From positions 1,676-65,675 of the IMG/VR virus record IMGVR_UViG_3300027816_000103: DNA of 64,000 bases, one strand, 5' to 3'. This DNA comes from a virus (lineage: Duplodnaviria; Caudoviricetes). The translations under genes were made by a program, and so were the position numbers. The notes under the pieces were generated by a model, which was not told where the DNA came from, did no database searches, and saw nothing but the letters and a program-made list of their open reading frames with translations. Of the stretch, positions 1 to 63,504 are shown in pieces; positions within the stretch are counted from its first letter, which is position 1, and each line of letters starts with the position of its first letter.

Positions 1-457
1 CAGACTTAAATCCAACTTGTATTACATCTCCCGCCACTAAAGACAAAATACCAGAATTTGTACAAACAGTAACTATTGGAGTTAGTATTTCTGATTCACC
101 AATCCAAACCTCTCTTGACTTTCTATCTGAATTAGTAACCATTACAGTATTCTTAAAAAGAGCGTACTCAATTAATGTTTCAGTTTCATCATAAGCAACG
201 CAACCTTCAAATAATATTAAATAATTTCCACTCTCTGTTATATTAAAAGTATCTGTATATTCATACACAGATGGAATTTCTGGAATATAAGAATAAGTGT
301 CTGGATTTGAAAATATATAAACATTTGTAAGTCCATCTTGGCCTGGAATTCCTTGAGGACCAACAACACCTCTGTCTCCTTTAGGGCCTCTTTTTCCTCT
401 AACAGAAATTAGTTTTTCACAACAACATGGATTTTTATGGCAACTATTACAATTCAT
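1..457 (-). CDS. Cys-rich collagen-like structural protein, partial (runs off window); paralog of 457..969
   Basis: ATG overlaps the upstream stop (TAATG). Hand translation MNCNSCHKNPCCCEKLISVRGKRGPKGDRGVVGPQGIPGQDG...GILSLVAGDVIQ; not in the ORF track. Confidence 0.75.
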   Translation of the reverse strand, partial: MNCNSCHKNPCCCEKLISVRGKRGPKGDRGVVGPQGIPGQDGLTNVYIFSNPDTYSYIPEIPSVYEYTDTFNITESGNYLILFEGCVAYDETETLIEYALFKNTVMVTNSDRKSREVWIGESEILTPIVTVCTNSGILSLVAGDVIQVGFKS

Positions 458-969
458 TATAATACTGTTAATTGTGTTGTTTTTAACATTGTTAAACTTT
501 TTGTCATTGTAAAATATCTTTGATTCCCTCTATATCTTATGCTAATAACATCTCCCGCTACTAATGATGGAATACCAACGTGCATTTTATTTTTTTTGAT
601 TTTGTTTTGACCCAAAGAGTCTAAGGCATCTCCCCTTAATGCTCTTAAAGCATTAGGTATTAAAACCCCATTTTTTAATGCTTGATACGATATTGATGTT
701 TGATCTATAAATATTTTTGTATCTGATTCATACATCATCAAATAGTCTCCTGGATCAGTAACAGTATAACTAATTACAATATAATCAATATTTGGAAATC
801 TTTGAGTTTCTGAAATATCTGTGTCTATGTAAGCACTTCTAACTCCATCTGGAGTATCTTGTCCTGGAACACCTTGTTCTCCTCTATCTCCCCGATCACC
901 TTTTGGTCCATCGCAGAACTTTTCATTGTCGCAAGTACAAATATGGCTATAGCAAGTAGTGCAACTCAT
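457..969 (-). CDS. Cys-rich, short collagen-repeat virion protein
   Basis: MSCTTCYSHICTC, then GPKGDRGDRGEQGVPGQD (Gly-X-Y); C-terminal SLVAGDVI shared with the neighbour. Confidence 0.7.
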   Translation of the reverse strand: MSCTTCYSHICTCDNEKFCDGPKGDRGDRGEQGVPGQDTPDGVRSAYIDTDISETQRFPNIDYIVISYTVTDPGDYLMMYESDTKIFIDQTSISYQALKNGVLIPNALRALRGDALDSLGQNKIKKNKMHVGIPSLVAGDVISIRYRGNQRYFTMTKSLTMLKTTQLTVL

Positions 970-972
970 GAT

Positions 973-1530
973 TTATACGCAACCACAGCAGGCGCATTGA
1001 AGGTTTATATGTTTAAGGATTTTCTGTGCATTGGTTGGGAAACAATCTTTCATCATCTTAACAGATTGTAATTCATTCCATAATTCTAAAGCAAGTTTCT
1101 GTTTTGCATTACTAAAAGCATTTGGAGAAACTTCTTTAAGTAACTTATCTATACAACACTCAGCAGAGTTAGTAAAGACAATTACTATTGATGTTTTTTT
1201 CGTGTAATTATTTCCCGCGTTATCTTTTCCTGTTACCACATAAACTATCTTCCATGTACCACTTTCAATATGTTGCATACTAAGCATTGAAGGAGTTATC
1301 TCATACCCTAACTGAGAATCAGTAGTAGGAAAATCAGGATATACGTCAATTTGAATAGGAGCAAGTGCCTCTGGAGGATAAATTTCAAATATAGCACTCG
1401 TTACATTCTCAATTTTTGGATTGCTACCTCCCCAACCACCTTGATTTGAAGAAGAATAAGTTCCGGTACAATCGTAAATAGCAAATGAATTTTTAAGTTC
1501 CTTTGCAGATATGTTTATTTGAAGTGCCAT
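973..1530 (-). CDS. Putative virion protein (beta-rich, Cys-rich C-terminus)
   Basis: 185-aa ORF in the late arm ending CACCGCV, with its own promoter motif. Confidence 0.6.
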   Translation of the reverse strand: MALQINISAKELKNSFAIYDCTGTYSSSNQGGWGGSNPKIENVTSAIFEIYPPEALAPIQIDVYPDFPTTDSQLGYEITPSMLSMQHIESGTWKIVYVVTGKDNAGNNYTKKTSIVIVFTNSAECCIDKLLKEVSPNAFSNAKQKLALELWNELQSVKMMKDCFPTNAQKILKHINLQCACCGCV

Positions 1531-1537
1531 TTGGTAG

Positions 1538-1545
1538 CAAAAATA
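1538..1545 (-). promoter_or_regulatory. Bacteroidota-type -7 promoter box TATTTTTG
   Basis: Matches TAnnTTTG, 7 nt before the ATG at 1530. Confidence 0.55.
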
Positions 1546-1573
1546 ACAAATTTTTTGATAAAAAACCTAAAAA

Positions 1574-4456
1574 TTAATACTCAAGACTACCAACTTTTTC
1601 AACCTGTTTCTTTTTTTCTATCTTTTGCTTTTTTAAGTCTTTATATTTTTCCTTTAAATTTTTCTTTGCCTCATTTAAACCTTTTGAATATTGCTCAGAC
1701 AAATATTTCTTTTTAGTATCAAAAGTATCATCATCAAAGTTTTTTGACATTACATAAGGAGTAGCATAAAGCATCCTAAACATACTTGCTTGAGATTGAA
1801 GATATCCATATTGCTCTTCATTTAATTTAACGTATATAGGCTTTTTTGAAGTACCAATATTTATTTCATCTTTTGGTATTGATGGAAAAATGGATGACCT
1901 ATCTTTGTCTGGTATTGTTCTTGAGTATTCCCATAACCTTGTAACAGGAGTTTCCCCGCTTTCTTTTATTTTATCTATATCTTTCTGTGTCAATGGTTTA
2001 AAACCTGATTTTAACAAAGGCTTCTTTAATCTTTCAAGTACAGTTTTCTCGTAGTCAGATATTGTTTCTGTTTCTGTAGGCTTAAAAGGATCATTTGCAT
2101 ATATGAATCTTCCTAATATATTATCAAAGAAATGATATTCTTTTTTCTTTACAGCTTCTCTTTCACTTGTGGTTAGTTTTCTATATCTATTTTTTAAATC
2201 TTCCCCGCCAAAAGCTACTCTATATTGAAAAACATCAAATAAATTCTGTGAGAATGTTTTTTCCTTATCAAATGTTTGCTTTATTTCTGGTATTCCTGCC
2301 TTAGATATATTCTGATATGTTGATGGTATAAATCCACCAACCAATGTCATTATTTGATTTGACAAATATTTTTCTGCTCTTTTACCTTCTTTATCTTTAG
2401 CCACATCTACTATTTGGTTATATCCAGATAAGAATGGAGCATCCATTGTAGCTGAAAGTTCATTTAGGGCCAAGTTAAATGGCATTGTAGCAAAATTTGC
2501 ACCATTCATGTATTTAGTCATGTTATCCCTCATCTCCTTATCATATCCATTATAAGTATGGGCATAAGCTCCTAAAGTAATTCCTAATGCACCCAAAGAA
2601 CTTAAATCAACCCACTTATCACCTTTCTGCTTTTTAACTTCCCCGCCAATCAATCCTCTTAGCATAGCATTTATGTTTATCTTGTTTGCTCCCCCTGCAA
2701 CCTTTTCTCTTGCATCTTTTTCCTCATCATCTTGATAACCGGCAGACATTAAACCTTGAGCAACCATTTGTAAGGCAACAACTCTTATCCATGTAGAAGC
2801 AACTGTATCTCCCATTGTTTCGGCAAATATTGCTTTTCTTTCATTATTTAATGCTTCTTTTGTTTGATTGTCTGTTGCATTATTATATTCATTTGTTTTA
2901 TTCCAATACTTAAACATTCCCCTTGCCAAGTTATATTCTGGCAATAACATTTTTGCTGCTACTCCAAACATATTTGCAGGCACTTTAACAAATGGAAATA
3001 CCAATGATTTTGCAACATAAGCCAAACCATCAACTTCTCTTGCTATGATAGGATTAGTCCCTTTTTCAATTAATGACTTTTCTATTAATCTGCTTTGAAA
3101 TGGTTTTGACAATATCTTATCAAGCCAATTCTCTGTTTGGAATGTAACTTCTTGGCCTCTTTTCTTTGCCCTTTCCATTGATAATTCATCAGGATTAAGT
3201 ACAAATGCCTCTAACGCTACTCCACTTAATCCTTTTTCTTTACCTATTCTATATAATTCAGACTGCTCAACTGAATGCCTAACAAAAAAATCAGGAGCAG
3301 TTAATCCTCTTGATATAATATCTGGGTGAATTTTTAGTAGAAAAGATATAGTTTTTAATGCTTTATCTTTTGTTCCCTGCGCATCAATAATCTTTCTAAA
3401 TGCTTCTACTGCACTAACATAATTTGGTTGAGCCAATCCTGTTCTTGTTATAAATGGACTACCTAATTTTAATGTTTTTAATGTTTTTGATAAAGCTCCA
3501 GACTTTAAAGAACCAATAACTCTTGCTCCTACTAAATTTTTCCTCATTAATCCTGATGCAATAGGAGAAGAAGCTATAGAAGATAAAGCTCTGAATATAG
3601 AATCAGATGCCATACCTGTTATATTCTTTAATAAAGAACCTACACCCATCATATTCAAAGTAACAAAATCACCAAACTGATGCAAATACCCTCTTTCCTT
3701 TGCTAATGCGTTTGAGAATGCTACAGTATTTGTAACGTTTGAATTGTAAGCATTCTGATAATTTTGAAACGCTGTATTAAATTGATTTTGAAATTGTTGA
3801 GACTGAGCCTGTGTAAGTCCTGCTGAGTTTAATCCTTGAACATTATTTGCTTTATTCTCTGCTACAGTTTGGTTAATTTGATTAACTATATCATTTATTT
3901 CAGAAACAGATCCATCAAGGTCCTTTTGTGATTGAGCAGTATCAGATATAAGTTTATTAAATTTATCTGTCATGGCAGGTAATCCTGCTGCTTCTGCATA
4001 AGCGTTTTTTATGTCCTCGTTTGTAAGTAGTCCTTTCTTAGATATTTTTTCAAATAGCAAGTCCTCAAATCTTTTCTTCCCCTCAGCATTTAATTTCTTA
4101 ACCCTTTCAGCCATGCTCTTAACAAGTTTTTCTTCTGATGTTTTTTTCCTTTCCTCAGCTCTTTTTTCTTTTCTTGCTTGTTTTTCTTCCTCCGTTAATG
4201 TTGTTCTTTTTTTAGCTTCTTTTTTCTCAAAAGTAAAAGAGCTTGAAACAACACCTTTTTCCTTTAATGTTTTAACGAGTGGGTCCGTAAAAGAATTTGT
4301 ATCAAAATTAAAATTTGGATATTTTTCCTGCACTTTATTTATTGCATACTGCAAAGATTTTCTAACATCTCCTGTTGCATTATAGGCATTTCTAAATGCT
4401 TCCAAGCCATCATTATAAGCCTGGTTATTTTCTTCAATATTACAAGGATTTCCCAT
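1574..4456 (-). CDS. Large internal virion/ejection protein
   Basis: 960 aa with helical and hydrophobic segments, directly after the 1952-aa protein, at the usual ejectosome position. Confidence 0.6.
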   Translation of the reverse strand: MGNPCNIEENNQAYNDGLEAFRNAYNATGDVRKSLQYAINKVQEKYPNFNFDTNSFTDPLVKTLKEKGVVSSSFTFEKKEAKKRTTLTEEEKQARKEKRAEERKKTSEEKLVKSMAERVKKLNAEGKKRFEDLLFEKISKKGLLTNEDIKNAYAEAAGLPAMTDKFNKLISDTAQSQKDLDGSVSEINDIVNQINQTVAENKANNVQGLNSAGLTQAQSQQFQNQFNTAFQNYQNAYNSNVTNTVAFSNALAKERGYLHQFGDFVTLNMMGVGSLLKNITGMASDSIFRALSSIASSPIASGLMRKNLVGARVIGSLKSGALSKTLKTLKLGSPFITRTGLAQPNYVSAVEAFRKIIDAQGTKDKALKTISFLLKIHPDIISRGLTAPDFFVRHSVEQSELYRIGKEKGLSGVALEAFVLNPDELSMERAKKRGQEVTFQTENWLDKILSKPFQSRLIEKSLIEKGTNPIIAREVDGLAYVAKSLVFPFVKVPANMFGVAAKMLLPEYNLARGMFKYWNKTNEYNNATDNQTKEALNNERKAIFAETMGDTVASTWIRVVALQMVAQGLMSAGYQDDEEKDAREKVAGGANKININAMLRGLIGGEVKKQKGDKWVDLSSLGALGITLGAYAHTYNGYDKEMRDNMTKYMNGANFATMPFNLALNELSATMDAPFLSGYNQIVDVAKDKEGKRAEKYLSNQIMTLVGGFIPSTYQNISKAGIPEIKQTFDKEKTFSQNLFDVFQYRVAFGGEDLKNRYRKLTTSEREAVKKKEYHFFDNILGRFIYANDPFKPTETETISDYEKTVLERLKKPLLKSGFKPLTQKDIDKIKESGETPVTRLWEYSRTIPDKDRSSIFPSIPKDEINIGTSKKPIYVKLNEEQYGYLQSQASMFRMLYATPYVMSKNFDDDTFDTKKKYLSEQYSKGLNEAKKNLKEKYKDLKKQKIEKKKQVEKVGSLEY

Positions 4457-4457
4457 T

Positions 4458-7400
4458 TTAACAATCTGATAAGTTTACTTTTAACGAATCTATAATATCA
4501 TTGAATTTTTTTGTTTTTTCAGCACCTTCTCTTGCTTCTCCAATTTTCTTTAATTCTTCAGCGGTAGCCTGTTCTACTTCTTTTGCAAATTCATTTGACT
4601 TTCTATATTCATCTATTATTGTTTGAGCCGACTTTATATCATTCTTTTGAGCTTCTGACATAGCATTATCTTGCATTTCAGAAAATTGCTTTTTAGCATA
4701 TCTTCTCATGTATATCTCATTTGAGAACATACGAGTATCTCTATTCCTTATTAATGCTAATTGTTGTGCTGCTGTTGTTGTGTTCTTAGCTGTTTTTTCA
4801 AACACTTGTTCAGCCTTGTCAAATAGCGTTTCTCTAACAAACTCATTCTGTTCTTTAGTTGCTATATCCTCAAGTTTCTTTGTAAGAAAGTCTCCGAACA
4901 ATAATTTTTGATTATCTGGTATGACATCGCTCTTGTCGGCCATATATTCATTAACCAAGTCATCTAACTTGCCATTAGCCTCATATTCATCTATAACAGC
5001 ATTAACAAATTCTTCTGATTTCTTTACGCTTGTTGGCTCATAGAATATAGCTTCATTAGATAGTCTTTTAACAACATCTTCATGGAATTTCTTGTTCTCC
5101 AATATCCTTGTTGCTGTTGCTCTTTCTTTTTTACCCTCTGGAGTAGGTCCTTTTTCTGCTTCTGTAGTTACAGGTGGTTTTGCAGGAGGAGCTTCTTTCT
5201 TTGCTTCCTCTTCTTTCTTTTTAGCCTCTTCCTGCGCCCTAGTCTCTTCTTCCTTAATTAAGTCGGCGTAATTATCTCTAACTTGCTTTTCAAAGTTCTC
5301 TTCGTTTATTTGTCCTGCCTCAACAAATCTCTTATATCTTGGGTGATTTTTAATGGCATTTATACCATCATTTACAGCCTGTGCTATTGTTGCTCCGGCA
5401 GTAATACTCTTTTTAATTACAGCAGATGATAAGTCTATTAAATCACTTATCATTTTTGGGGTAATCATTGGAGCAGAGAATAACCTATTATTAGCGTTTT
5501 TATCTACTATAGTATTTTTTAATTTTTCTGTAGCAGCATCAATTTTTTTATTTAAGTCTTCTGCTTTTTGCTTTATTGTTTTTTCTTCGGCTGTTGGCTC
5601 TGCTTTTTCTCCGACTGTTGTTTCAGTTTCAGCAATACCTCTTCCGCCTTCTTCAATACCTCCTTCGGCAACGCGTTGTAAATTCTGTTTAGCTTTTTCA
5701 TAGTTTGATACTAAATTTTGTAATCCTCTTTCTAATAGTGCTTGTTTTCCCGTATCTTCTCCCATCAAATTTTCAACACCAACATCTTGATTGTAATTTG
5801 ATAAGAATTGTTTTAATTTATTTGGAGAGTTTGTTTCAAGTAATAAACCCATTAACATTTCCCCCAAAGAGTATGATTTTTCCTCAAATGCTGATGTTTG
5901 TGAAAGAAAGTCTGCAACAGATACTTTTGCAGCTTTTGCTTTTTGTACAATATCAATAGCTCCTTTTATTTCAGATGTTAAAGCATTTTCTCCTTTTGTA
6001 GCATTTTGAATTAATCCTACAGTATTCTTTATAATCATCTTTCTGATATTCCCCATTCCATCAACTCCCAATGCCCTTATTCCATCTTCATCTAATGCTG
6101 AACCAAGTATTATTCCCTCCAACAAGCTAACTCCATCAGGAGTAGCAACACCTTTATCATAAAACCTCGGTAATTCAACAGATTGAATTAATCCTTCTGA
6201 AACAAGTATATCTACAGCTTGTTTCATCATTTTTGGATTAGATGTAACTTCGCTTGGAGTTTCTACTTGGTCATATAATGATGCTAATTTTCTTTTTGCC
6301 TTGTCTGATATTGATTTACTAATTGCTACAGCTCTTTGAATTGGTCCTTGAGACTTTTTCTCCTGCTTATTGAATTTAGCCATTGTTTCTGTTGTAAATG
6401 GTAAATCTTCTTCAACCTCAAAAACCAATGTTGGATTTTTTACAGAAGCAACTTGTTCTTTTGTAAATCCATACATTTCAGCCTGTTCATTCAAGTCATC
6501 TAAATATTGAGAATCAGTTTGATTTTCAGCAGCTAATTGCCTACTCATTGTTCTGTTATTACCATCATACACAATACCTTCTTTTGAAACTATTGGAGTT
6601 TGAGTAACAGCAGTACCATCAATATTTTGAGCAATATTTATTACTTGTCCTTGAGCATCTTTGTCTGTTTCATAGTCTCTATCATTTATTGTCTTTCCCT
6701 CCTTATTTTGAGGAAAAGACTCGTTCTTTGAAAATGTTTTAGGATTATGACTTGGCAATAAATCTTCGGCGGAAACAAGTTTAAATGTACCTTTTATTCT
6801 TGTTCCATCAGGAGCAGTTCTTGTTACTGTTCTTCCTTTTGGATTTTCTTTTGCAACATAAGTTGTACTACCAACAGTTCTTCCCGCTTGATCCTTTGGA
6901 AGTTTTGCTCGGGGTGTTTCTTTGAGGGATTGTTCTACTGCTTTTACAAGTTCTTTAGGAGCTAATAGTTCTTCTACTGCTTTTACAAGTTCAGGATTGC
7001 TTCCATCTGCTTTAGCTTTATGGTAGGCTTCGGAGATAGCTTTAGTGTTATTTGAAATTATATCTTCACTAAGGCTTATTTGCTCTTTTATTGACCTATA
7101 TTCAGGATTATTTTCAAAATCTCTTACACCACTTTGCAACAACTCTTTTTGCTTAGCTAACAAGTTATTATATAATTGCTTGTTTAGTGCGTTTATTTCT
7201 TTTGGAGGGATAATAGTTGTAATATCTTTACCCTCCAACGCACGCGCCGTGCTTTCAACGTCTTTTAATGCATCTACTTTTTCTTCTACTTTGACTTCTT
7301 CTTTGGCGATTGGCTTTTCTTCAACTTTTTGGGCAGAGATTTCAAGTTCTGTTTGGGGTTTTCTTTCCTCCATTTCTCCGCCAATTTTGGTTTCTGGCTG

Positions 7401-10316: not shown

Positions 10317-10317
10317 A

Positions 10318-54068: not shown

Positions 54069-54084
54069 TGTCTATTTATTTATG

Positions 54085-54092: not shown

Positions 54093-54097
54093 GTTAA

Positions 54098-54325: not shown

Positions 54326-54334
54326 ATTTTTATT

Positions 54335-55906: not shown

Positions 55907-57096
55907 GCTCTAACACCTTTTAATGTAATTTTTAAACCTTTAGCAGTACCATCACCAACTTGGTCAATATCAATAGTCATTTCAGCATCATCAGCTAAAG
56001 TTGAATCAGATATTACAGGAGGAGTTACAGCAGTAACAGAAGTCTTTTCTGTATTATCAATAGTCAATTTTGTTGATAATATAGTTGAGCCACTTTCATT
56101 TATGTCAACTGTAAATATACTACCACTTGTTTGTGCAGTAGATAAAGAAGCTCTAACTGATGTAACAGTCATAGCATAAGGCATCCTAAATGTAACCTTA
56201 GCAGTTCCTGTTGTTAATGCAGTTGTTTCATCAGAAGCAGCTAATTGAATTTCGCATGGTGTACCAACTAAATTTGAATCAGGAATTCTTAACCAACCTG
56301 TATCGCTTCCTAAACCACTTGCTTTTATATATAATTCCCCTGCGTTTCCTGTTGTTTGAATAAAACAAATATCGCCAGGGAAGCCATTTATATTTGTATT
56401 TGGGTTTCTGTCGCTAACAAAAAATACAATATCAGCATCAATGTTTGTAATTCTATATATGCCTGTTTTTCTTGATAATTTTGTATCAATATGTAACTTA
56501 TTTTGAGGAGAAATAGTATTTATGCCAACATTACCTGACGTTGTAACCCTTGCAAATTCAGTATTATTTGTAATAATTGGTAGGTCAAAATTATCAATAG
56601 TGCCTATCTTTTTAATTGACCCTACATTGTTTCCGTTCAATGCCCAAAAACTACCCGTAGGAGATGATTGAGCAACTATTTGAGCAACAGTCTCAGATAC
56701 TTGATAAAATACTAAATTAGGATCTCCATCTTCTCCAACATAAAATTGTGTTCCCCCAGAAACAGGTATAAAAACACCTGATATTATGTTTGTTGGAAAT
56801 ACTCTTTTGTAACTTACTGAATACTGAGGACCAAAACCTTTTCTATAAGTAACGTTTGCTAAAAAAAAATCATCAGACAAACCTACAATGGTAGTCAAGT
56901 CTTCTTGAACTTCATATATATATTTAGCGTTAGACCTTGCTTGTTGGTCTATGCCTTTCACATCTCTTGAAACAATAGTAGAGTAAATTCCATCATTGCT
57001 AATAGGTGCTACTATATCATCTGTTTCAAAACCATAAGCTATTGGAGTTATAGGCTTTCCGTTAATACTTACAACTGTTAGGGAAATTGCGCTCAT
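55903..57096 (-). CDS. Tail fibre protein, paralog B
   Basis: N-terminal ~270 aa shared with 61373..62233; GNVGINT fibre motif; extra C-terminal beta domain. Confidence 0.7.
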   Translation of the reverse strand: MSAISLTVVSINGKPITPIAYGFETDDIVAPISNDGIYSTIVSRDVKGIDQQARSNAKYIYEVQEDLTTIVGLSDDFFLANVTYRKGFGPQYSVSYKRVFPTNIISGVFIPVSGGTQFYVGEDGDPNLVFYQVSETVAQIVAQSSPTGSFWALNGNNVGSIKKIGTIDNFDLPIITNNTEFARVTTSGNVGINTISPQNKLHIDTKLSRKTGIYRITNIDADIVFFVSDRNPNTNINGFPGDICFIQTTGNAGELYIKASGLGSDTGWLRIPDSNLVGTPCEIQLAASDETTALTTGTAKVTFRMPYAMTVTSVRASLSTAQTSGSIFTVDINESGSTILSTKLTIDNTEKTSVTAVTPPVISDSTLADDAEMTIDIDQVGDGTAKGLKITLKGVRA

Positions 57097-57118
57097 TTTA
57101 TAGATGTTAAATTTTGTT

Positions 57119-57126
57119 CAAATATA
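57119..57126 (-). promoter_or_regulatory. -7 promoter box TATATTTG
   Basis: TTAACT-N8-TATATTTG before the fibre B module. Confidence 0.55.
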
Positions 57127-57137
57127 GTAAATTTTAG

Positions 57138-57470
57138 TTAATTTTCTTTAAAATAAATATTTAACAATGGTATGTATGTTTCGTTCATCCATTTGTCAAA
57201 TGCCTCCCAAGAATAGGCTCCATAAATATATGTTTGGTCCACAAATGTTATCTTAATACACCTTGTTCCAGGATCATCAGAATCCTCAAAAAGAACATAT
57301 TCTCTATAGTCTGTTATTTCGTTAAAATGAATGTTAAATGTCCTGTTGAATCTTTTCCATCCCTTATCCCTTAAAATAAGTTTATCCCCGCCCTTGTAGA
57401 ACTCTTGTATCTCATGGCGGTCAAATATCCTTATTGTATAAAACGGATTAATAAAGTTTTCCATCTTCAA
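57138..57470 (-). CDS. Hypothetical protein
   Basis: 110 aa. Confidence 0.6.
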   Translation of the reverse strand: MKMENFINPFYTIRIFDRHEIQEFYKGGDKLILRDKGWKRFNRTFNIHFNEITDYREYVLFEDSDDPGTRCIKITFVDQTYIYGAYSWEAFDKWMNETYIPLLNIYFKEN

Positions 57471-58446
57471 TTAAATAATTTCTTACTTTAAAATTATCTC
57501 CACTCATTTCAACTATTGCAAAGCCATGTGCGTGGTTATTCACTTCAAAAAATTCTGGCTCTAGTTCGCACAAACAAGCAACCGAAAATGTAGTTACAAG
57601 ACTGCCATCATAAATTTTTTCAACATGTTCAGATTTTCTATGGAAATGTCCTGTTAATATATGTCTTTTGTATCTCATGTAAAGTGAACGAGCAGGATTG
57701 ACTCCCCCATTGCCCTTCATGCGGTCTCCATGCTCTATTAAGAGATCTCCGAAATAAGTTTTAGTACGTTTTTCAATAAATATAATCTTGTGTTTGGCAA
57801 GTTCCAATAACACTTTAAGTTGAAATTCCTCGCAGTCTAACAACTCAGGTGCTTTCAAATAAAGGTATCTTTCAAGCCTATATTCATGATTACCAGGTTT
57901 AAAGTATATTGTTACGTTTGGAAATTCTTGTCTTAGATAAGCAAAAAACTCCCGAGCCATGTCAAGTTCATTTTTTAAACTTGGTCTGTTCTTTGGATTT
58001 TTCTCATGAAACGATAGCATAAAGAAATCCATTATGTCACCGTTCAAATATATAGTATCAATACCTTGTTGTTTTCCCTCGTTTAAAGCTGTTTTAATCG
58101 CTTCAACATCATGGTATGGTATATGAATGTCAGATAAAATTAAAATTTTTTTATTGGTCTTTGGTAGCTTCCAAACCTCAACGTGCTTGGTATGGCTTTC
58201 TGGAATTAAATGTGGTTTGTTTTTAATATTTACAAAGGTTTTGTTTGCTAATTTATTCTTTTGAGAAGCGCCTTGTTTGCCCTTATAATATCTAATATGA
58301 GTGCGCACATAATCAACTGAACTAAATAATTCTTTATTTTCTAAATATATTTTTTTTGATAAAGTAAGATTAGGTAAATTAGGAAATCTTTTAAGATATT
58401 CTAAAACTATTTCACCATTCGTGCTTAAAGGTCTTCCTCTTTTCAT
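57448..58446 (-). CDS. Calcineurin-like metallophosphoesterase
   Basis: LSDIHIP, LNGD, PGNHE, EHGD, GHFH. Confidence 0.9.
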   Translation of the reverse strand: MKRGRPLSTNGEIVLEYLKRFPNLPNLTLSKKIYLENKELFSSVDYVRTHIRYYKGKQGASQKNKLANKTFVNIKNKPHLIPESHTKHVEVWKLPKTNKKILILSDIHIPYHDVEAIKTALNEGKQQGIDTIYLNGDIMDFFMLSFHEKNPKNRPSLKNELDMAREFFAYLRQEFPNVTIYFKPGNHEYRLERYLYLKAPELLDCEEFQLKVLLELAKHKIIFIEKRTKTYFGDLLIEHGDRMKGNGGVNPARSLYMRYKRHILTGHFHRKSEHVEKIYDGSLVTTFSVACLCELEPEFFEVNNHAHGFAIVEMSGDNFKVRNYLIEDGKLY

Positions 58447-58674
58447 TTATATTATTGAATAATTTATTAATTCGTTGTACTTAGCGGAAACAATGTCTCC
58501 GTTTTTTAAATCTAATTCAAGCACCCGAAGATTTGGTGCACCAAAACAACTTTCTGATAACCAAACATCATCAAATATTATGTCATTAATATAAACAATA
58601 CTTTGAGTAGCTATCATATTTGTAATATCTAATTCTTTTTTTTCGTCTTTATTTGCAATATATATTAATGTCAT
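58447..58674 (-). CDS. Hypothetical protein
   Basis: 75 aa. Confidence 0.5.
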   Translation of the reverse strand: MTLIYIANKDEKKELDITNMIATQSIVYINDIIFDDVWLSESCFGAPNLRVLELDLKNGDIVSAKYNELINYSII

Positions 58675-59234
58675 ATTTCAAAACATATTTGTCCACTTAC
58701 AACTTTTGATCCCGATGCAGTCCAAGTTGGAGTATAACTTGTAACTAATTGCCAATAATTAAATGTTACTAGATTTGATGCTGGCAATATAATTCCAAAT
58801 CCATGATACCAAACTCCATTGTTTTGACTCCTGTTTGGATTTTCAGTTTGTACAATTGCATTATTTGGTAATGTAAATGATGTTGTATTTGCATTAGATA
58901 TACCATATAAAGCATAATTTACAAACATCATATTACCAACAATTTTATATTTTAATTGTTTTAATGTAAATGACGCCCAACCTGTAATAGTAGATGTTGC
59001 TGAATAATCAATCCATACGGTATTGTCTAATTTACCATTAAATGTACTCCAATCAGTTGATGATAAATAACCGCTTGTTGATGCTGTTGCTTGACTTAAA
59101 ATATTTTGCTTATTTAATAATCCATTATCTACATAAGTTTTTGTAGCTTTTTGGGAAGCAACAAGTAAATCACTATTATTAGATAGTGTAGGATCTATAT
59201 CAATGGGTACACCCCTAGTTGTTCCTTGTGCCAT
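58671..59234 (-). CDS. Short tail fibre/spike component
   Basis: ASQKATKTYVD and SGYLSSTDWSTFNGK fibre-shaft motifs. Confidence 0.65.
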   Translation of the reverse strand: MAQGTTRGVPIDIDPTLSNNSDLLVASQKATKTYVDNGLLNKQNILSQATASTSGYLSSTDWSTFNGKLDNTVWIDYSATSTITGWASFTLKQLKYKIVGNMMFVNYALYGISNANTTSFTLPNNAIVQTENPNRSQNNGVWYHGFGIILPASNLVTFNYWQLVTSYTPTWTASGSKVVSGQICFEI

Positions 59235-60484
59235 TATCTTATTTCTCTAAATTTAATTGATGAATAAATTGTTTGAGTACCACTTAATGATGTAGCTTTT
59301 AAAGTTAGTGTGCCTAATGACCTATGTAATCCTGCTGCATCTAAAGTAATAGGGTATCTTGATATAATAGCTGTATTAGTAACACCTTTAGCTCCACCAG
59401 ATGATGAAACAAAACCACCATCTATAACTACAGAAGGACTACCACTAAGCGTGCCTAAAACATTATATTCAGAACTACTATAAGTAGTATTAACATTATT
59501 AAATGTAGTGGTACCTGATATAGCCTGGCCGATGCATAATTGCCATTGAATAGGCTGAGTACCTCCGTTATATATTTCAACATCTATATAAGCTACTCTT
59601 GTTCTATTGGTTAAACCATTAAATGTGGTTCTTGGTCTAAGGCTCAACATGTGTGTGCCACCTGTAGTTACACTTACAGGACCACTATCTTGCTGAAAAG
59701 TATAACCATACACGTTTATATCTTCACTACCTCCTTCAGATATTACAGCAGCACAAATAAAGTTCATTGTTGTACTAACGGTTCCTGTACAAGTCATACC
59801 ACATCTAACAGGTAAATTAGCTGTTTGTATGTATGGATTTGATATTAAGTTAGCGTGTAAAAATTCATGAGCATATATTATTGAACCACCCATATCAAAA
59901 CCAATTCTTACCCTGCCAACGTATAATGCTTGTATATCAATAATTAATATTTGTGTTTTAGTAATATCAAGAGTAATACCACTAGGACCTGTACCATCTA
60001 ATTTATCTAAGTTCCAATTAGTTTGAGCAACTGTTTCATTGCCGGCGGAACTAGCTGAATAAACAACAAATTGATTAACAGTACCATTGTTTTGAAATTC
60101 TATACCATTAATACCATCAGAATATCCTGCAAACTTTAATGTATTAGCTACAGAGGATACCATATTAAAAGTGACAAATATAAGTTGTGACCTACCTGGT
60201 TGGTATGGTAAATACTCATAACTCTGCATATATGCTTTACCTCCTGTAGGAGTAGAGCTAAATGTCATTAACGCTTGTCTGTTAGTAACATCATGAGTTA
60301 TTGTAGCACCAGTACCATTAGTAACTTGCTCATTAATAACAGGAGCTAAATCATAAGTAAATTGAGAATTATATAATATAAGAGGATTTGATACACGTAG
60401 CCTACTAAATGCATCCAAATTAGCTGAATCCCTAATAGCAAAATCATTGTCTATTATACTATATCCTGAATATCCTTGTGCCAT
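59234..60484 (-). CDS. Virion structural protein (DAFxRLRVS-type)
   Basis: DAFSRLRVSNP, YQPGRS, WNLDKLDGTG, GRVRIGF. Confidence 0.65.
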   Translation of the reverse strand: MAQGYSGYSIIDNDFAIRDSANLDAFSRLRVSNPLILYNSQFTYDLAPVINEQVTNGTGATITHDVTNRQALMTFSSTPTGGKAYMQSYEYLPYQPGRSQLIFVTFNMVSSVANTLKFAGYSDGINGIEFQNNGTVNQFVVYSASSAGNETVAQTNWNLDKLDGTGPSGITLDITKTQILIIDIQALYVGRVRIGFDMGGSIIYAHEFLHANLISNPYIQTANLPVRCGMTCTGTVSTTMNFICAAVISEGGSEDINVYGYTFQQDSGPVSVTTGGTHMLSLRPRTTFNGLTNRTRVAYIDVEIYNGGTQPIQWQLCIGQAISGTTTFNNVNTTYSSSEYNVLGTLSGSPSVVIDGGFVSSSGGAKGVTNTAIISRYPITLDAAGLHRSLGTLTLKATSLSGTQTIYSSIKFREIR

Positions 60485-60485
60485 A

Positions 60486-60812
60486 TTAACTTATTTCTGT
60501 GCCAAACAATTGAAAACTTAAATTATTATTACCAGAATACACTTTAATAACATCAGTACTTGTTAAGGTAATACCTATAGTAGCTATAAATGTATCATTA
60601 CCCGCCAAAGTAACATCATAGTACAAATAATCCTTAATAGTTGTACTTGAACCTGATTCACTTATAGCTACTCTAAATGTAGTTTTAGCTACATCTGTAT
60701 TACAGATAGATATAGAACTACATACAGTAGATATTAAAGCAGGTACTGTATATAATACAGTTTCTGTAGTAGTGGCAGGATTAACCTGGCCTAATATTTT
60801 ATATACGTTCAT
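60486..60812 (-). CDS. Small beta-sandwich tail-associated protein
   Basis: YKILGQVNP...LYTVP...SFQLFGTEIS. Confidence 0.65.
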   Translation of the reverse strand: MNVYKILGQVNPATTTETVLYTVPALISTVCSSISICNTDVAKTTFRVAISESGSSTTIKDYLYYDVTLAGNDTFIATIGITLTSTDVIKVYSGNNNLSFQLFGTEIS

Positions 60813-61371
60813 TTTTTTCTAACTTTTTACTTAAGTTATGTCCCCAATTTTTTATATGACTTGGTTTTTCTTTATTAAATGTATGTTTATAGTGACAGTC
60901 CATACAAAGAGTTTCACAATTATTAATGTCAAACCTTAACTCTGGAAACTTTGACCATTCTTTTATATGGTTTACTTGTAAATATCCTCCTTTTTTATAA
61001 CAATGTTTACAAGAATAATTATCTCTTTCAAATATCAATTTTTGTAAAGTTGCTCTAAATCTTTGTCTGTCTCTATAATTTTCTGAATATTTTGAATTTT
61101 CTTTTCTTTTACCCAAACTATACTTGTTTCCAGTATGAGCTTTTATTAATCCTTGTTTTCTTTTTTCTTTTTCTTCTTCAGTCCATACTCTTTTTTTAGC
61201 TCCTTCTGACATTTTTTGTTTAGTTTCTTCAGAAGGTATCCATCCTTTACGAGATTCAGATATTTTTTTATAGGAACATTTTCTACAAACTCTATTGCTT
61301 CTATCTCCTCTTACGAACCTTCCAATTCCACAACTTGGACAATTACATTTTATTTTTGTAGTTTTTGCCAT
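60799..61371 (-). CDS. HNH homing endonuclease with NUMOD3-like motif
   Basis: SEETKQKMS, ERDNYSCKHC, LQVNHIKEWSKFPELRFDINNCETLCMDCH. Confidence 0.85.
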   Translation of the reverse strand: MAKTTKIKCNCPSCGIGRFVRGDRSNRVCRKCSYKKISESRKGWIPSEETKQKMSEGAKKRVWTEEEKEKRKQGLIKAHTGNKYSLGKRKENSKYSENYRDRQRFRATLQKLIFERDNYSCKHCYKKGGYLQVNHIKEWSKFPELRFDINNCETLCMDCHYKHTFNKEKPSHIKNWGHNLSKKLEKNERI

Positions 61372-61372
61372 A

Positions 61373-62233
61373 CTATGCCCCCATTAATAAAAAGTTTTTA
61401 TTAAATCCCAAATCGTTTAAATCAACGTACAAATTAACCCAACCTGTGTTTGTGGCTGTACCTGTTTTTTTTATAAATAACTCTCCGTTAGTTCCATCAT
61501 CAACAATACATATATCACCTTTATTTGCAGAAATTATAGTCTCAGGACTAGAGTCACTTGTAAATATTCTAAATTCATTATCTATATTTCCAAATCTTGC
61601 TATGGCATTCAGCAATGACTGAGAAGTATTTACATCAAACTTGTAAGATGGATTTAATCCAACACCAAAATTACCAGAACTCGTAAACCTTCCAACTTCT
61701 GAATTATTTGTTATTACAGGTAAATCATAATTGTCTTTTGTTCCTATTGTTTTTATTCCCCCAACAGTATTTCCGTTTAAGGCCCAAAACACACTTGATG
61801 GAGATACTTGGTTTATTATCTGTATTATAGATTGAGAAACCTCATAAAAAATAGGTAATAAATTTTCATTCTCATAAAAATTAAATTGAGTAGATGTAAC
61901 ATTTGGATTAAATATTGTCCTTATTTTTTCTAAAGGAAATACTCTTTGATAACTTACAGCGTATTGAGCTGTCCTGCCTCTAAAATAAGTTACATCTCCA
62001 AGAAATAACTCAGTAGACAAAGAAACAATAGTTGCAAGACTTTCCTGCACCTCATACCTTGCTTCTATTAAAGAAGATTTATCGTTTAATCTGCCATAAG
62101 TTCTAATAATAACTAAAGAATAAGTACCATCGTTACTTATAGGCTCTGCTATTTCATCAATATCAAATCCATATAGTGTTGGAGCTACAGGATTATTATT
62201 TATTGAAACTACTGTTAGAGCTATTGCGCCCAT
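61373..62233 (-). CDS. Tail fibre protein, paralog A
   Basis: MGAIALTVVSIN... parallels MSAISLTVVSIN... of 55903..57096. Confidence 0.7.
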   Translation of the reverse strand: MGAIALTVVSINNNPVAPTLYGFDIDEIAEPISNDGTYSLVIIRTYGRLNDKSSLIEARYEVQESLATIVSLSTELFLGDVTYFRGRTAQYAVSYQRVFPLEKIRTIFNPNVTSTQFNFYENENLLPIFYEVSQSIIQIINQVSPSSVFWALNGNTVGGIKTIGTKDNYDLPVITNNSEVGRFTSSGNFGVGLNPSYKFDVNTSQSLLNAIARFGNIDNEFRIFTSDSSPETIISANKGDICIVDDGTNGELFIKKTGTATNTGWVNLYVDLNDLGFNKNFLLMGA

Positions 62234-62693
62234 TATAAAAGAATTTTATATAAATAAAAAACAAAAATACAATAAGTAATGGAAGCCACCAATAAATCCT
62301 AAGATAGGTCCAAACATTGTCTTGATAAATTATTTTTTCGTATGGTACTTTTACCTCTCTTATTATTCTTATTGTGTCGCACTTTCCACTAATGTAAACC
62401 AAGCTATCTTTAGTGTTATAAAAATACTTTAAAGTTAGTTTCCCTTCTTTTATAACAACAGTATCTTTTGTGTTATAATAGAAAATGGTATCTTTTTCTG
62501 ATACCATTGTATATATAGTGTCTCTTATTTTTAATGTGTCTTTTTTAACTAACTCTGGACAGTTTTTTTTAATCCTTGCAAGTTTTTTTTCACAAGTGCA
62601 ACTGCTTAATAAAGAAAATAAAAGTATTAAAATCCAAAAACTAATTAGTATTAAGACTATCGTCTTTAATGGATTTTTCTTTCTTATTGTCAT
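62196..62693 (-). CDS. Putative unimolecular spanin-like lipoprotein
   Basis: N-terminal lipobox LLSS-C, beta-rich DT repeats and a C-terminal TM helix. Confidence 0.55.
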   Translation of the reverse strand: MTIRKKNPLKTIVLILISFWILILLFSLLSSCTCEKKLARIKKNCPELVKKDTLKIRDTIYTMVSEKDTIFYYNTKDTVVIKEGKLTLKYFYNTKDSLVYISGKCDTIRIIREVKVPYEKIIYQDNVWTYLRIYWWLPLLIVFLFFIYIKFFYNGRNSSNSSFNK

Positions 62694-62946
62694 TAGTAGA
62701 GTTTTTTATTTTCTCATAAGTAGTCATCCCTAAACATATACATATAATTCCATAATCAATAACTAATATTTCCGGCAATAAAGAATAATCCGCTTTATAG
62801 TAAGAGTGTTTCAACCAACAAGCATGAGAAATAACAACAAGCAACATTATAACAAAGGCTGTTAATTTTTTTGAAGACCATATACTATCTTTTATAGTAA
62901 ATGTAGCCTCAAACTTATTAAATATTCCCTTTATAAAAAGTATCAT
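62641..62946 (-). CDS. Putative holin (2 TM)
   Basis: WSSKKLTAF, two TM helices, GMTTYEK. Confidence 0.55.
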   Translation of the reverse strand: MILFIKGIFNKFEATFTIKDSIWSSKKLTAFVIMLLVVISHACWLKHSYYKADYSLLPEILVIDYGIICICLGMTTYEKIKNSTNDNKKEKSIKDDSLNTN

Positions 62947-63161
62947 TTTTTTCCTTTAAAGTGTTTATATATTGTTATAAGGCCTGTTATTATTGCCACT
63001 ATCCAAGCAAATATCTGAAGCGAATGCAATACAACAGGAGGAAAATCCCAATGTAATAATATTGATTCATTTAATTGAAGCAATATTCCGCTTATAAAAC
63101 TAATAACCATAGTTGATAGGCTATTGTCACTATTAAAGTCTATGTTTGGAGAGTTTGCCAT
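62943..63161 (-). CDS. Putative holin/antiholin (2 TM)
   Basis: 72 aa, two hydrophobic segments, basic C-terminus. Confidence 0.5.
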   Translation of the reverse strand: MANSPNIDFNSDNSLSTMVISFISGILLQLNESILLHWDFPPVVLHSLQIFAWIVAIITGLITIYKHFKGKK

Positions 63162-63162
63162 T

Positions 63163-63504
63163 TTATGCTTTTGCTACTAATGGAAGACCATCAATTGTAA
63201 CAGTAGTTGTATTCCCGCCACTTGTACTTGTAATAGTCCAACCACTCTCTTTTATGGTCAAGAACTCATCAGCAGTTATAATACCTTTTCTCAAAGCACA
63301 AGTCAAATCAGAAATATATTTTCCTGTTATTTCAATCAAGGCACTTTCGGCAGTTGTATTTCCTGTTGGAGAAACATATACATATACATTTCCCAAATCA
63401 TCTTTGTAAGATAACTTGTTCTCATTGGTTGTATCAAAGAAATAAGTTACTTCTCCTGTTCCCGGAGTGGGAACTTCAGAGGGAGCTAAATATTGTACGT
63501 TCAT
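63163..63504 (-). CDS. Hypothetical virion-associated protein
   Basis: 113 aa in the late arm. Confidence 0.6.
   Translation of the reverse strand: MNVQYLAPSEVPTPGTGEVTYFFDTTNENKLSYKDDLGNVYVYVSPTGNTTAESALIEITGKYISDLTCALRKGIITADEFLTIKESGWTITSTSGGNTTTVTIDGLPLVAKA

What the first reader, a model, noticed from the sequence alone, without database searches (positions are those of the whole stretch)
30..63218. Over-represented polar motif GCGGG converges on the dif-like site: Chi/KOPS-like architecture in a phage
Seen (hand count): about 36 CCCGC and 12 GCGGG on the + strand, against roughly 10 in total expected at about 30% GC. Most read TTCCCGC or YCCCGC. Orientation changes by region: 1-27.4 kb has 21 CCCGC and 1 GCGGG; 31.1-35.4 kb has 1 CCCGC and 6 GCGGG (31148, 31594, 32595, 32856, 34155, 34873) plus 35349; 36.4-64 kb has 14 CCCGC and 4 GCGGG. 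GCGGG therefore points toward about 36 kb from both sides and away from about 29-31 kb. Genes are on + on both sides of the flip, and 36.4-53.3 kb has 10 CCCGC against 4 GCGGG, so coding-strand bias does not explain it. Established: Chi sites (E. coli GCTGGTGG, B. subtilis AGCGG, S. aureus GAAGCGG) and KOPS are polarised toward dif. Inference: the phage mimics a Bacteroidota Chi to protect linear genome ends near 36 kb from AddAB/RecBCD, or uses an FtsK-orienting motif to reach its own dif site.
Basis: partly seen in the sequence, partly recalled or inferred. Interest (0 to 1): 0.85.

Follow-up and report, generated by a model that had tools for sequence, protein, structure and literature searches.

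The report
Polar GCGGG-purine word in a phage
A short DNA word, GCGGG followed by purines, is truly over-used and strand-directed in this freshwater phage, while many related phages purge the same word; it may imitate a host DNA-repair signal, but this is unproven.

Summary
The counts are right: 36 CCCGC and 12 GCGGG on the + strand, at the stated places. The excess is real: 48 against 10.3 (order-1 Markov, top pentamer), 23.7 (maximal-order Markov) and, inside genes, 35+10 against 8.2+2.3 under synonymous-codon shuffling. About a third of it is a side effect of restriction-site avoidance such as GCTGG.

Genes diverge at 29.1-29.7 kb, so coding strand explains the polarity in about 48 kb. It does not explain the 36.3-53.3 kb replication module. 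There the word lies antisense (8 against 0.17-1.4 expected) and keeps its purine tail.

A second lineage (G001, L164) shows the same word and layout. In contrast, 23 of 62 related loci hold none at all, where 112.5 were expected. CCCGC is the FauI/SmuI restriction site.

Samples from 13 host-class genomes show no excess and no polarity, and the host is unknown.

My best reading is a host-specific, direction-dependent signal that acts like Chi (about 0.35). KOPS/dif is not supported.

The parts
30..27371 (-). Arm 1 (block R1: tail, capsid, portal 23219-25498, large terminase 26091-28277; all genes on the minus strand). 21 GCGGG on the minus strand, 1 on the plus strand. With the purine tail (GCGGGRR) 19:0. 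None lies between 20,546 and 27,367.
   Evidence: Synonymous opportunities realised: sense 21 of 279, antisense 1 of 193.
29062..29679 (.). Divergent intergenic region where gene strand and word orientation switch together. It holds TTAAC-type repeats and promoter-like hexamers.
31148..35353 (+). Arm 2 (block R2: small plus-strand genes and the amidase at 32025-32915). 7 GCGGG on the plus strand, 1 on the minus strand. GCGGGRR 5:0.
   Evidence: Sense 6 of 28 opportunities realised, antisense 1 of 18.
35506..36310 (.). Non-coding switch region between the last plus-oriented site (35,349) and the first minus-oriented site (36,459). It holds the R2 terminator at 35531-35555, ACCCCCTCCC three times (35566, 35766, 35881), about a dozen TTAAC(A) half-sites, and the palindrome at 36072-36091.
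   Evidence: A similar G/C-rich element occurs three times in the matching gap of G001.
36459..50792 (-). Arm 3 (block R3: plus-strand genes RadC, HNH, exonuclease, SbcC-like ATPase, SNF2 helicase, AEP-DnaB primase-helicase, RusA-like). 10 GCGGG on the minus strand, of which 8 lie antisense inside ORFs (7 read YCC-CGC, Ser/Pro-Arg; one ORF, 36311-36520, is small and doubtful) and 2 are intergenic. 4 on the plus strand. GCGGGRR 10:3, with eight in a row on the minus strand from 36,463 to 45,376.
   Evidence: Antisense 8 against 0.94, 0.17 and 1.39 expected under three null models. 7 of 31 [APST]-Arg dipeptides realised here against 0 of 124 elsewhere.
53371..53387 (.). Two-way terminator hairpin at the convergent R3/R4 junction. 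It argues against late transcripts reading into R3 from the antisense side.
53553..63218 (-). Arm 4 (block R4: minus-strand genes). 4 GCGGG on the minus strand, 0 on the plus strand. R4 runs on into R1 across the contig ends, as the gene order of the relative G308 shows.

Best explanation
GCGGG followed by two or three purines (about 8 nt) is a DNA-level word that selection keeps at high density, one per 1.4-1.8 kb, in this freshwater phage of Bacteroidota type. It runs in one direction over about 57 kb (36.4 kb through the contig ends to 27.4 kb, G-rich strand = minus) and in the other over about 4-6 kb (31.1-35.4 kb). The two arms converge on the 35.5-36.3 kb non-coding region. I read it as a host-specific, orientation-dependent signal for a DNA-translocating host enzyme. 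Most likely it is a Chi-like site that tames an AddAB-type helicase-nuclease acting on phage DNA ends or rolling-circle tails, as in the Chi-rich lambdoid phages. Shown: the excess, its independence of reading frame, the antisense enrichment in the replication module, recurrence in a second lineage, and purging of the same word in many relatives. Inferred: that an enzyme reads it, which enzyme, and where the DNA ends lie. Part of the excess (about a third) and most of the polarity outside R3 have ordinary causes: compensation for avoided words, and a G-rich coding strand.
For: (1) The excess survives every null I tried: 48 against 10.3 and against 23.7; 35+10 against 8.2+2.3; 35+10 against 13.4+3.6. 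(2) It is not a codon-pair effect. Sense sites fall in all three frames (17, 13 and 5). All 8 antisense sites in R3 carry the RRR tail although the antisense strand is pyrimidine-rich, and they share nothing else. (3) Orientation differs between two co-directional gene blocks. S:A is 6:1 in R2 against 4:8 in R3 (p 0.057), and 11:1 against 9:14 when pooled with G001 (p 0.004). For GCGGGRR it is 27:0 outside R3 against 3:10 inside (p 3e-7). In R3 the G-rich strand of the word runs against the local GC skew. (4) Replication in a second lineage. G001 (portal 41% identical) has 52 against 13.1, the top pentamer, with sense 25 against 6.8. Its layout is the same: GCGGGRR 24:1 outside and 4:6 inside its RadC-side block. 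Its close kin L164 has 18 against 2.4, with 7 sense and 11 antisense. (5) It depends on the host, not on phage genes. G308 has the same gene order, with helicase 61% and primase 53% identical, and has no excess (22 against 29.6). 23 of 62 related loci hold none where 112.5 were expected, while six words of the same composition are absent from only 0-8 loci. (6) Precedent and plausibility. Polar Chi-rich phages are described (passages of PMC12315714). Known Chi sites of AddAB/RexAB hosts are short, and two share the GCGG core (AGCGG, GAAGCGG; table in PMC5959072). Bacteroides has AddAB and its Chi was unknown in 2010 (passage of PMC2887965).
Against: No host chromosome with this word enriched or skewed was found. 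In 13 sampled genomes (1.67 Mb) GCGGG is 0.70-1.34 times the order-1 expectation, with no polarity beyond gene strand. No low-GC genome among 301 Bacteroidia (GCGGGRR) or 401 Flavobacteriales (GCGGGRAA) comes near the phage's density. The host is unknown, so this weakens the reading but does not refute it. The phage carries its own exonuclease, ATPase, helicase and RusA-like gene, whereas the Chi-rich lambdoid phages lack a recombination module. Three of four blocks are equally well described by a sense-strand preference. R3 holds both orientations (10:4). The arms are very unequal, and no DNA end or terminus is shown at 36 kb. Four-fold-site skews show no replication asymmetry. The R2-versus-R3 contrast within this phage alone is only p 0.057, and I chose the blocks after seeing the data.
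Confidence: 0.35

Rival explanations
1. No function. The excess is a by-product of restriction-site avoidance, of CpG being funnelled into a few allowed contexts, and of a purine/G-rich coding strand. Antisense copies are tolerated only in weakly expressed early genes, where rare codons cost little.
For: The phage avoids GCTGG/CCAGC (1 against 34.7; 2 against 19.8), CACTG (1 against 72), AAGCTT (0 against 75.7), CTAG and GATC. Forbidding these words in the shuffle raises the expectation from 8.2 to 13.4 (sense) and from 2.3 to 3.6 (antisense), and explains most of the GCAGG excess. CpG stands at 0.44 of expectation, with GCGG and GCGC the favoured contexts. Relatives that tolerate the word show a mild sense excess (1.7-1.9 times, z 2.5-3.0). 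Host-class genomes show a mild sense preference.
Against: After this correction, sense is still z about 7, antisense z about 4, and R3 antisense 8 against 1.39. The maximal-order Markov model, which fixes all tetramer counts, still gives a two-fold excess. Frames 1 and 2 cannot arise by replacing GCT-GG. The antisense sites keep the purine tail. The R2-type blocks are also made of small early-type genes, yet have 1 of 47 antisense opportunities realised against 14 of 106 in R3-type blocks (p 0.039). The same pattern arose in two lineages.
Confidence: 0.2
2. Priming signal. 5'-YYYCCCGC-3' on the lagging-strand template is the recognition site of the phage's AEP-DnaB primase-helicase. Replication would start in the 35.5-36.5 kb non-coding region and run both ways to ends or a terminus near 29-31 kb.
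For: The switch lies in an AT-rich, repeat-rich gap just upstream of the replication module. The orientation fits: the template strand would carry CCCGC on both arms and the primer would read GCGGGRR. The spacing, 1.4-1.8 kb, is about the length of an Okazaki fragment (the latter recalled). The phage encodes a BT4734-like-N plus DnaB_C protein at 49827-51833.
Against: G308 has a primase 53% identical and the same gene order but no excess and no polarity (22 against 29.6). The same TTAAC repeats also sit at the 29.1 kb promoter region, so they look like operators rather than iterons. About 40 kb of late genes would be transcribed head-on to replication. 45-51 kb holds both orientations. Four-fold-site skews show no switch at 36 kb.
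Confidence: 0.1
3. KOPS-like guide. The word orients host FtsK toward a phage dif site at about 36 kb for XerCD resolution of genome dimers.
For: The word converges on about 36 kb from both sides. A unique palindrome, TTTAACA-N6-TGTTAAA, lies at 36072-36091, and part of it resembles a Xer-binding arm (recalled, not tested).
Against: The half-sites are 6 bp apart, not set as two 11-bp arms around a 6-bp core (dif geometry recalled). They belong to an array of about a dozen TTAAC(A) sites that recurs at 29.1 kb. There is no recombinase gene. No skew of the word appeared in 13 sampled host-class genomes. I know of no case of a lytic tailed phage using FtsK guidance (recalled; no search made).
Confidence: 0.05
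4. Another direction-dependent process of the phage itself: strand-specific nick sites of the T5 kind, or sites read by a phage DNA-binding protein during packaging or ejection.
For: 32 of 40 GCGGGRR sites lie on one strand. Two HNH endonuclease genes are present, at 43483-43902 and 60799-61371. Packaging from near the terminase genes would run along the 57-kb arm (inference).
Against: The excess does not follow phage gene content (G308). R2 and three R3 sites lie on the other strand. Nothing links any phage protein to the word.
Confidence: 0.12

Closest known systems
Chi-rich lambdoid phages (E. coli phage LLS and 62 others; Pseudomonas phage MD8), PMC12315714
   Same: A short G-rich host-type word at about one per 1.4-1.9 kb, far above chance, with a strong orientation bias along the genome. 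It is present in some phage lineages and absent in close relatives.
   Different: There the word is the host's proven Chi, the ends (cos) are known, the sites cluster near one end, and the phages lack a recombination module. Here the host, its Chi and the DNA ends are unknown. The phage has its own nuclease and helicase genes, and most of the bias coincides with gene strand.
Chi sites of AddAB/RexAB hosts (B. subtilis AGCGG, S. aureus GAAGCGG, L. lactis GCGCGTG), table in PMC5959072
   Same: Length of 5-8 nt, G/C-rich, and a shared GCGG core with two of them. Bacteroides uses AddAB (PMC2887965).
   Different: No biochemical or genomic evidence ties GCGGGRRR to any AddAB. It is not enriched or skewed in the 13 Bacteroidia genomes sampled.
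FauI/SmuI-type restriction site CCCGC (PMC4309577) and restriction-site avoidance in phages
   Same: The same pentamer. 23 of 62 related loci hold none, as expected for a word under restriction pressure.
   Different: This phage and the G001 lineage hoard the word instead of purging it. This phage has no DNA methyltransferase gene, whereas G001 has a C5 and an N4/N6 methylase. The source organisms of FauI and SmuI (Flavobacterium, Sphingobacterium) are recalled from the enzyme names, not checked.
T7 and EcoP15I: 36 CAGCAG sites all in one orientation (recalled; no paper read here)
   Same: An asymmetric, over-frequent word with a one-strand bias that largely follows gene direction.
   Different: Here the orientation is not uniform (convergent at 36 kb, divergent at 29-31 kb), so it would not protect against an enzyme that needs inverted sites. 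The word has no adenine in its core.
KOPS/AIMS of bacterial chromosomes (PMC3384302, abstract in a search listing only)
   Same: A skewed G-rich word of about 8 nt that converges on one point.
   Different: A 66-kb phage genome with arms of about 6 and 57 kb, no demonstrated dif and no skew in sampled host-class chromosomes.

Membership tests
Chi (RecBCD/AddAB hotspot) mimicry in a phage | Word strongly over-represented against composition-aware and codon-aware nulls | tested here: met
   48 against 10.3 and 23.7; 35+10 against 8.2+2.3; 35+10 against 13.4+3.6
Chi (RecBCD/AddAB hotspot) mimicry in a phage | Orientation bias such that an enzyme entering from the exposed DNA end meets the word from its 3' side | tested here: inconclusive
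   The bias is real (GCGGGRR 32 on the minus strand, 8 on the plus) and would fit ends at about 36 kb. The ends are unknown: contigs bridge 27.0-33.1 kb and 33.1-36.6 kb, and the large terminase is only 22-24% identical to known ones.
Chi (RecBCD/AddAB hotspot) mimicry in a phage | The same word enriched and leading-strand skewed in the host chromosome | tested here: inconclusive
   Not seen in 13 sampled Bacteroidia or Flavobacteriales genomes (0.70-1.34 times expectation, Fisher p 0.06-1.0), nor in surveys of 301 and 401 genomes. The host itself is not identified.
Chi (RecBCD/AddAB hotspot) mimicry in a phage | Word recognised by the host helicase-nuclease (pause, attenuated degradation) | not testable with these tools
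   Needs biochemistry
KOPS / FtsK-XerCD-dif | Polar word converging on a dif site with two Xer-binding arms around a 6-bp core | tested here: inconclusive
   Convergence at about 36 kb is met. The only palindrome has 7-bp half-sites 6 bp apart within a TTAAC array. The dif geometry is recalled, and no dif model was run.
KOPS / FtsK-XerCD-dif | Word skewed along host replichores | tested here: inconclusive
   No polarity beyond gene strand in the 13 sampled genomes (same calls as above); host unknown
Restriction-site avoidance (FauI/SmuI CCCGC) | Word depleted against expectation and against words of the same composition | tested here: not met
   Not met in this phage, where it is enriched 2 to 4.7 times. 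Met in relatives: 23 of 62 loci have none where 112.5 were expected, against 0-8 loci for six control words.
Primase recognition site | Enrichment goes with the primase family | tested here: not met
   G308 has a primase 53% identical and no excess (22 against 29.6)
Primase recognition site | Word on the lagging-strand template with respect to a mapped origin | not testable with these tools
   Origin not mapped; four-fold-site skews are uninformative

The most novel reading that the evidence does not exclude
GCGGGRRR is the Chi-type recognition word of the AddAB nuclease of a freshwater Flavobacteriia-like host. It would be the first such word for Bacteroidota, found through phage mimicry. Its core is also a common restriction target (CCCGC) in this phylum, so related phages face opposite pressures: they purge it in hosts that cut it and hoard it, in a directed way, in hosts that read it as 'self'.
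Probability: 0.3. Interest if true: 0.75.

Novelty: new member of a known kind. Interest (0 to 1): 0.5.

Why it matters
No Chi sequence is known to me for Bacteroidota; the one paper I read on this says that of B. fragilis AddAB was unknown in 2010 (PMC2887965). A phage that hoards a directed 8-nt word gives a concrete candidate to test with purified AddAB and in host genomes. The contrast with relatives that purge the same pentamer is a clean example of one word under opposite selection in one phage family. It may also help predict hosts of uncultured phages. If the word turns out to be a by-product, the case is still a useful warning: heavy restriction avoidance can create strong apparent 'motifs'.

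Tried and rejected
1. Listing artefact. In one search the first places listed for several genomes were all on '+' (13 of 13), which looked like extreme leading-strand polarity. Reading the DNA showed both strands: the first 20 kb of G028:C1 has GCGGGRR 3 plus and 11 minus. The listing puts forward hits first, and I dropped the idea.

2. Finding the host. The nearest matches in the phage collection are a 128-base stretch and distant terminases only. Four genome contigs with portal relatives are labelled Flavobacteriia, Kordia, Ignavibacteriae and Paludibacteraceae MAGs. One portal homologue carries a Brocadiaceae MAG label. Amidase homologues carry no organism names. There are no tRNA genes. 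The runs holding the DNA are labelled freshwater, lake or 'fungus' metagenomes.

3. DNA ends. All runs are kept as contigs only. No begin/end pile-ups and no joint of note appeared, so this says nothing about termini.

4. Replication skew at four-fold sites gave no usable signal.

5. Very-short-patch repair as a driver. The transition neighbour ACGGG/CCCGT is low in this phage (3 against 9.7; 0 against 2.3), but ACGGG shows no obvious lack in G001 (16 raw counts, no expectation computed). This idea also gives no polarity.

6. Antisense late transcription through R3 is unlikely, given the two-way terminator at 53371-53387.

7. Escape from Type III or ISP restriction by uniform orientation is rejected, because the orientation is not uniform.

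8. A protein shared by the two enriched lineages (44719-45186) has no Pfam match. A search for it found only G001 and its kin L164.

9. There are no Rfam matches in the window.

Supplementary files of the papers were not opened. Those of PMC12315714 list the Chi counts of the phage panel and could refine the comparison.

11. The regional blocks R1-R4 were defined after seeing the data, so their p-values are descriptive. Eight small opposite-strand ORFs were dropped before the gene-based counts: 29440-29610, 34395-34823, 35707-35934, 36847-37023, 41274-41447, 42203-42430, 42437-42637 and 43883-44050.

Full report
WHAT THE WINDOW IS. The window is bases 1676-65675 of a single 65,675-base virus contig (32.5% G+C; CheckV completeness 95%; no end repeats).

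The ORFs form four blocks. R1 runs up to 29.06 kb on the minus strand. It holds tail-size proteins, a portal at 23219-25498 (PHROG portal; homologues carry PF16510) and a large terminase at 26091-28277. R2, 29.68-35.5 kb, is on the plus strand and holds small genes and an amidase. A non-coding stretch follows at about 35.5-36.3 kb. R3, 36.3-53.33 kb, is on the plus strand. It holds RadC, HNH, a PD-(D/E)XK-type exonuclease, an SbcC-like ATPase, an SNF2 helicase, a BT4734-N/DnaB primase-helicase and a RusA-like protein. R4, 53.42-64 kb, is on the minus strand.

The syntenic relative G308 shows that R4 runs straight on into R1, so the contig ends are arbitrary. The phage has no tRNA gene, no integrase and no DNA methyltransferase.

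Portal relatives are numerous in metagenomes, on contigs of about 65-75 kb. Four sit on genome contigs labelled Flavobacteriia, Kordia, Ignavibacteriae and Paludibacteraceae MAGs. The same DNA is held by runs labelled freshwater, lake and 'fungus' metagenomes.

THE OBSERVATION. The word is longer than five bases. In 43 of 48 sites the next base is a purine, then 45 of 48, then 39 of 48. That gives 40 GCGGGRR and 36 GCGGGRRR. GCGGGAA occurs 19 times against 1.33 expected and GCGGGGAA 9 times against 0.25.

The excess is real. Under an order-1 Markov model it is 48 against 10.3, the top of all pentamers. Under the maximal-order Markov model it is 48 against 23.7, z 5.0, second of all. When synonymous codons are shuffled within each of 79 ORFs, the sense count is 35 against 8.2 +/- 2.7 (rank 1 of 1024 words) and the antisense count 10 against 2.3 +/- 1.4. 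Sense sites use all three reading frames: 17 GCG-GGN, 13 nGC-GGG and 5 nnG-CGG-G.

ORDINARY CONTRIBUTIONS. The genome is heavily shaped by word avoidance. GCTGG is 1 against 34.7, CCAGC 2 against 19.8, CACTG 1 against 72, AAGCTT 0 against 75.7, and CTAG and GATC are also low. Ala-Gly can hardly be written GCT-GGN, which pushes codon choice toward GCA-GG and GCG-GG. A shuffle that may not create these words raises the expectation to 13.4 +/- 3.1 (sense) and 3.6 +/- 1.5 (antisense), and accounts for most of the GCAGG excess. That chain drifted to fewer forbidden words than the real genes hold (28 against 239), so it overstates the compensation. About a third of the excess is therefore indirect. 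The remainder is still z about 7 and z about 4.

Most of the polarity is also ordinary. GC skew follows the coding strand, and the flip at 29-31 kb is the divergent gene switch.

WHAT IS NOT ORDINARY. In R3 the genes are on the plus strand but the word is mostly on the minus strand (10 against 4). Eight copies lie antisense inside ORFs, seven of them written YCC-CGC for Ser/Pro-Arg with the rare Arg codon CGC. The expectation for these eight is 0.94 (within-gene shuffle), 0.17 (genome-wide codon usage with motif codons masked) or 1.39 (avoidance-constrained shuffle).

Counted as synonymous opportunities, 8 of 58 antisense chances are used in R3 against 2 of 256 in the other blocks (p 3e-5). 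In particular, 7 of 31 [APST]-Arg dipeptides are used in R3 against 0 of 124 elsewhere. All eight carry the RRR tail although they sit on the pyrimidine-rich strand, and they share no other sequence. The two antisense copies outside R3 lack the tail.

With the tail required, the picture sharpens. R1 has 19 on the minus strand and none on the plus, R2 none and 5, R3 10 and 3, and R4 3 and none. Eight consecutive minus-strand sites run from 36,463 to 45,376. The word therefore runs one way over about 57 kb and the other way over about 4-6 kb. It switches between 35,349 and 36,459 across the non-coding region. A model with this polarity fits better than one uniform enrichment factor (likelihood ratio p 0.005). 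A sense/antisense model does not (p 0.74). The blocks were chosen after seeing the data.

REPLICATION AND CONTRAST IN RELATIVES. Of 62 related loci of at least 10 kb, taken around the portal gene, only one (L048) has twice the expected count or more. Its contig G001 (40.5 kb; portal 41% identical) has GCGGG/CCCGC as its top pentamer (52 against 13.1). Its sense count is 25 against 6.8, z 8.1. It shares the extended forms: GCGGGGAA 9 and GCGGGAAA 9.

G001 has the mirror-image gene order. GCGGGRR is 17 sense and 1 antisense in and just beyond its structural block, 7:0 in the block next to the divergent promoter, and 4 sense to 6 antisense in the RadC-side block beyond a non-coding gap. That is 24:1 against 4:6, p 8e-4. 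L164, a close kin of G001 that extends this module through the exonuclease, ATPase and helicase genes, has 18 against 2.4, with 7 sense and 11 antisense. Pooled over the two lineages, the blocks on either side of the non-coding gap differ: S:A is 11:1 against 9:14, p 0.004.

By contrast G308, which is closer to this phage (portal 49%, helicase 61%, primase 53% identical), has no excess (22 against 29.6). The closest relative in hand (G002, portal 63%) has only a mild sense excess (17 against 9.2).

Most strikingly, 23 of the 62 loci contain no copy at all although 112.5 are expected in sum, and 31 of 62 have a quarter of the expected count or less. Six words of the same composition with one CpG are absent from only 0-8 loci. 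The sub-words CCGC and CCCG remain present. CCCGC is the recognition site of the Type IIS enzymes FauI and SmuI (PMC4309577, passage read). So this pentamer is 'seen' by host systems. It is purged in many lineages and hoarded in two. G001 carries a C5 and an N4/N6 methylase. This phage carries neither.

HOST-SIDE TESTS. I surveyed GCGGGRR in 301 Bacteroidia genomes and GCGGGRAA in 401 Flavobacteriales genomes. I then read 1.67 Mb from 13 of them, choosing most for a high ratio to the reversed control word. In those 13, GCGGG is 0.70-1.34 times the order-1 expectation. It is never among the top 100 pentamers, and its strand follows gene strand only mildly, with no extra polarity. An apparent '13 of 13 on plus' in the listing was an artefact of listing order. 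None of these genomes is known to be the host, so the test is negative for Bacteroidia in general and open for the true host.

THE 36-KB REGION. After the R2 terminator (35531-35555) come three copies of ACCCCCTCCC, a G/C-rich inverted repeat, an AT-rich stretch with about a dozen TTAAC(A) half-sites, and a promoter-like site at 36551-36578. Among the half-sites are two exact TTTAACAATTTTA and the single palindrome at 36072-36091. TTAAC repeats also fill the 29.1 kb divergent region, so they look like operators of one regulator. G001's matching gap holds a similar G/C-rich element three times. Nothing identifies an origin, a terminus, a dif site or DNA ends. Contigs of four runs pass through 27.0-33.1 kb and 33.1-36.6 kb, and four-fold-site skews are flat.

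INTERPRETATION. The combined properties are those of Chi-type words. The word is short and G-rich. It is frame-independent and direction-dependent. Its presence depends on the host lineage, not on the phage's own replication genes. Phages that hoard their host's Chi in one orientation are documented: LLS has 23 sites, 20 in the active orientation, one per 1.86 kb; 62 other lambdoid phages and MD8 (32:0) show the same (PMC12315714, passages). Chi of AddAB/RexAB hosts is short, and two of the listed words share the GCGG core (PMC5959072, table). Bacteroides uses AddAB, with an unknown Chi as of 2010 (PMC2887965, passage).

I therefore rank a Chi-like reading first, at about 0.35. There are real objections: no host evidence, the phage's own recombination genes, very unequal arms, and mixed orientation in 45-51 kb. 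A pure by-product (0.2) fails on the R3 antisense sites and on their recurrence. A priming-site model (0.1) fits the geometry if the origin is at 36 kb but fails on G308. KOPS/dif (0.05) has only the convergence in its favour. Other phage-autonomous directional processes, such as nicks or packaging, take about 0.12. The rest is unknown.

VERDICT. The mechanism is unproven. It is a good candidate for a Bacteroidota Chi-like word and a clear case of opposite selection on one pentamer within a phage family.

Noticed in passing
whole window: Very strong avoidance of GCTGG/CCAGC (1 against 34.7; 2 against 19.8 in genes), ACTGG, CACTG (1 against 72), AAGCTT (0 against 75.7), CTAG, GATC, CATG and TCGA. 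This is a restriction-avoidance fingerprint that could help find the host. GCAGG/CCTGC is raised about two-fold as compensation.
   Followed up: partly
window 35566-35575, 35766-35775, 35881-35890; G001 (L085) about 14245-14575: ACCCCCTCCC-type element three times in the non-coding gap. A similar G/C-rich element (complementary strand) occurs three times in the matching gap of the distant relative G001. Function unknown: promoter, origin or packaging signal are all possible.
   Followed up: partly
window 36010-36550 and 29070-29180: Arrays of TTAAC(A) half-sites in both large intergenic regions, including two exact TTTAACAATTTTA (36072, 36180) and one palindrome at 36072-36091. They look like operators of a single regulator.
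   Followed up: partly
window 4458-10316 (minus strand): A 1952-residue protein in the tail/virion block carries a ddrB-like ParB-superfamily domain (PF18763, residues 1170-1298, E 8e-11).
   Followed up: no
window 34823-35203, 37012-38274, 38310-39122: Weak Pfam hints, all below the curated cut-offs, to DUF1599 ('nucleotide modification associated domain 1'), Amidoligase_2 and GATase_6. A possible DNA-base modification pathway, unproven.
   Followed up: no
G001 (L085) 10372-10393, 12272-12293, 12954-12976: Three intergenic hairpins whose stems are the word and its complement (CCCCGC-N12-GCGGGG type), each just upstream of a gene. In the window, 36826 and 39148 also sit in hairpin-like contexts.
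   Followed up: no
window 36600-37400: Public metagenome contigs break into many short variant pieces here (an ACA-rich low-complexity stretch), and a diverged strain appears in run X13. This is a hypervariable spot in natural populations.
   Followed up: no
window 2-457 (ORF runs on upstream of the window) and 457-969 (minus strand): Two adjacent paralogous ORFs carry the word at the same place (peptide VAGDV), so these two sites are not independent.
   Followed up: no
related loci L001-L080: CGACG/CGTCG is absent from 36 of 62 related loci and CGCCG/CGGCG from 32. This may reflect further restriction targets, or a weakness of the order-1 expectation for words with two CpGs.
   Followed up: no
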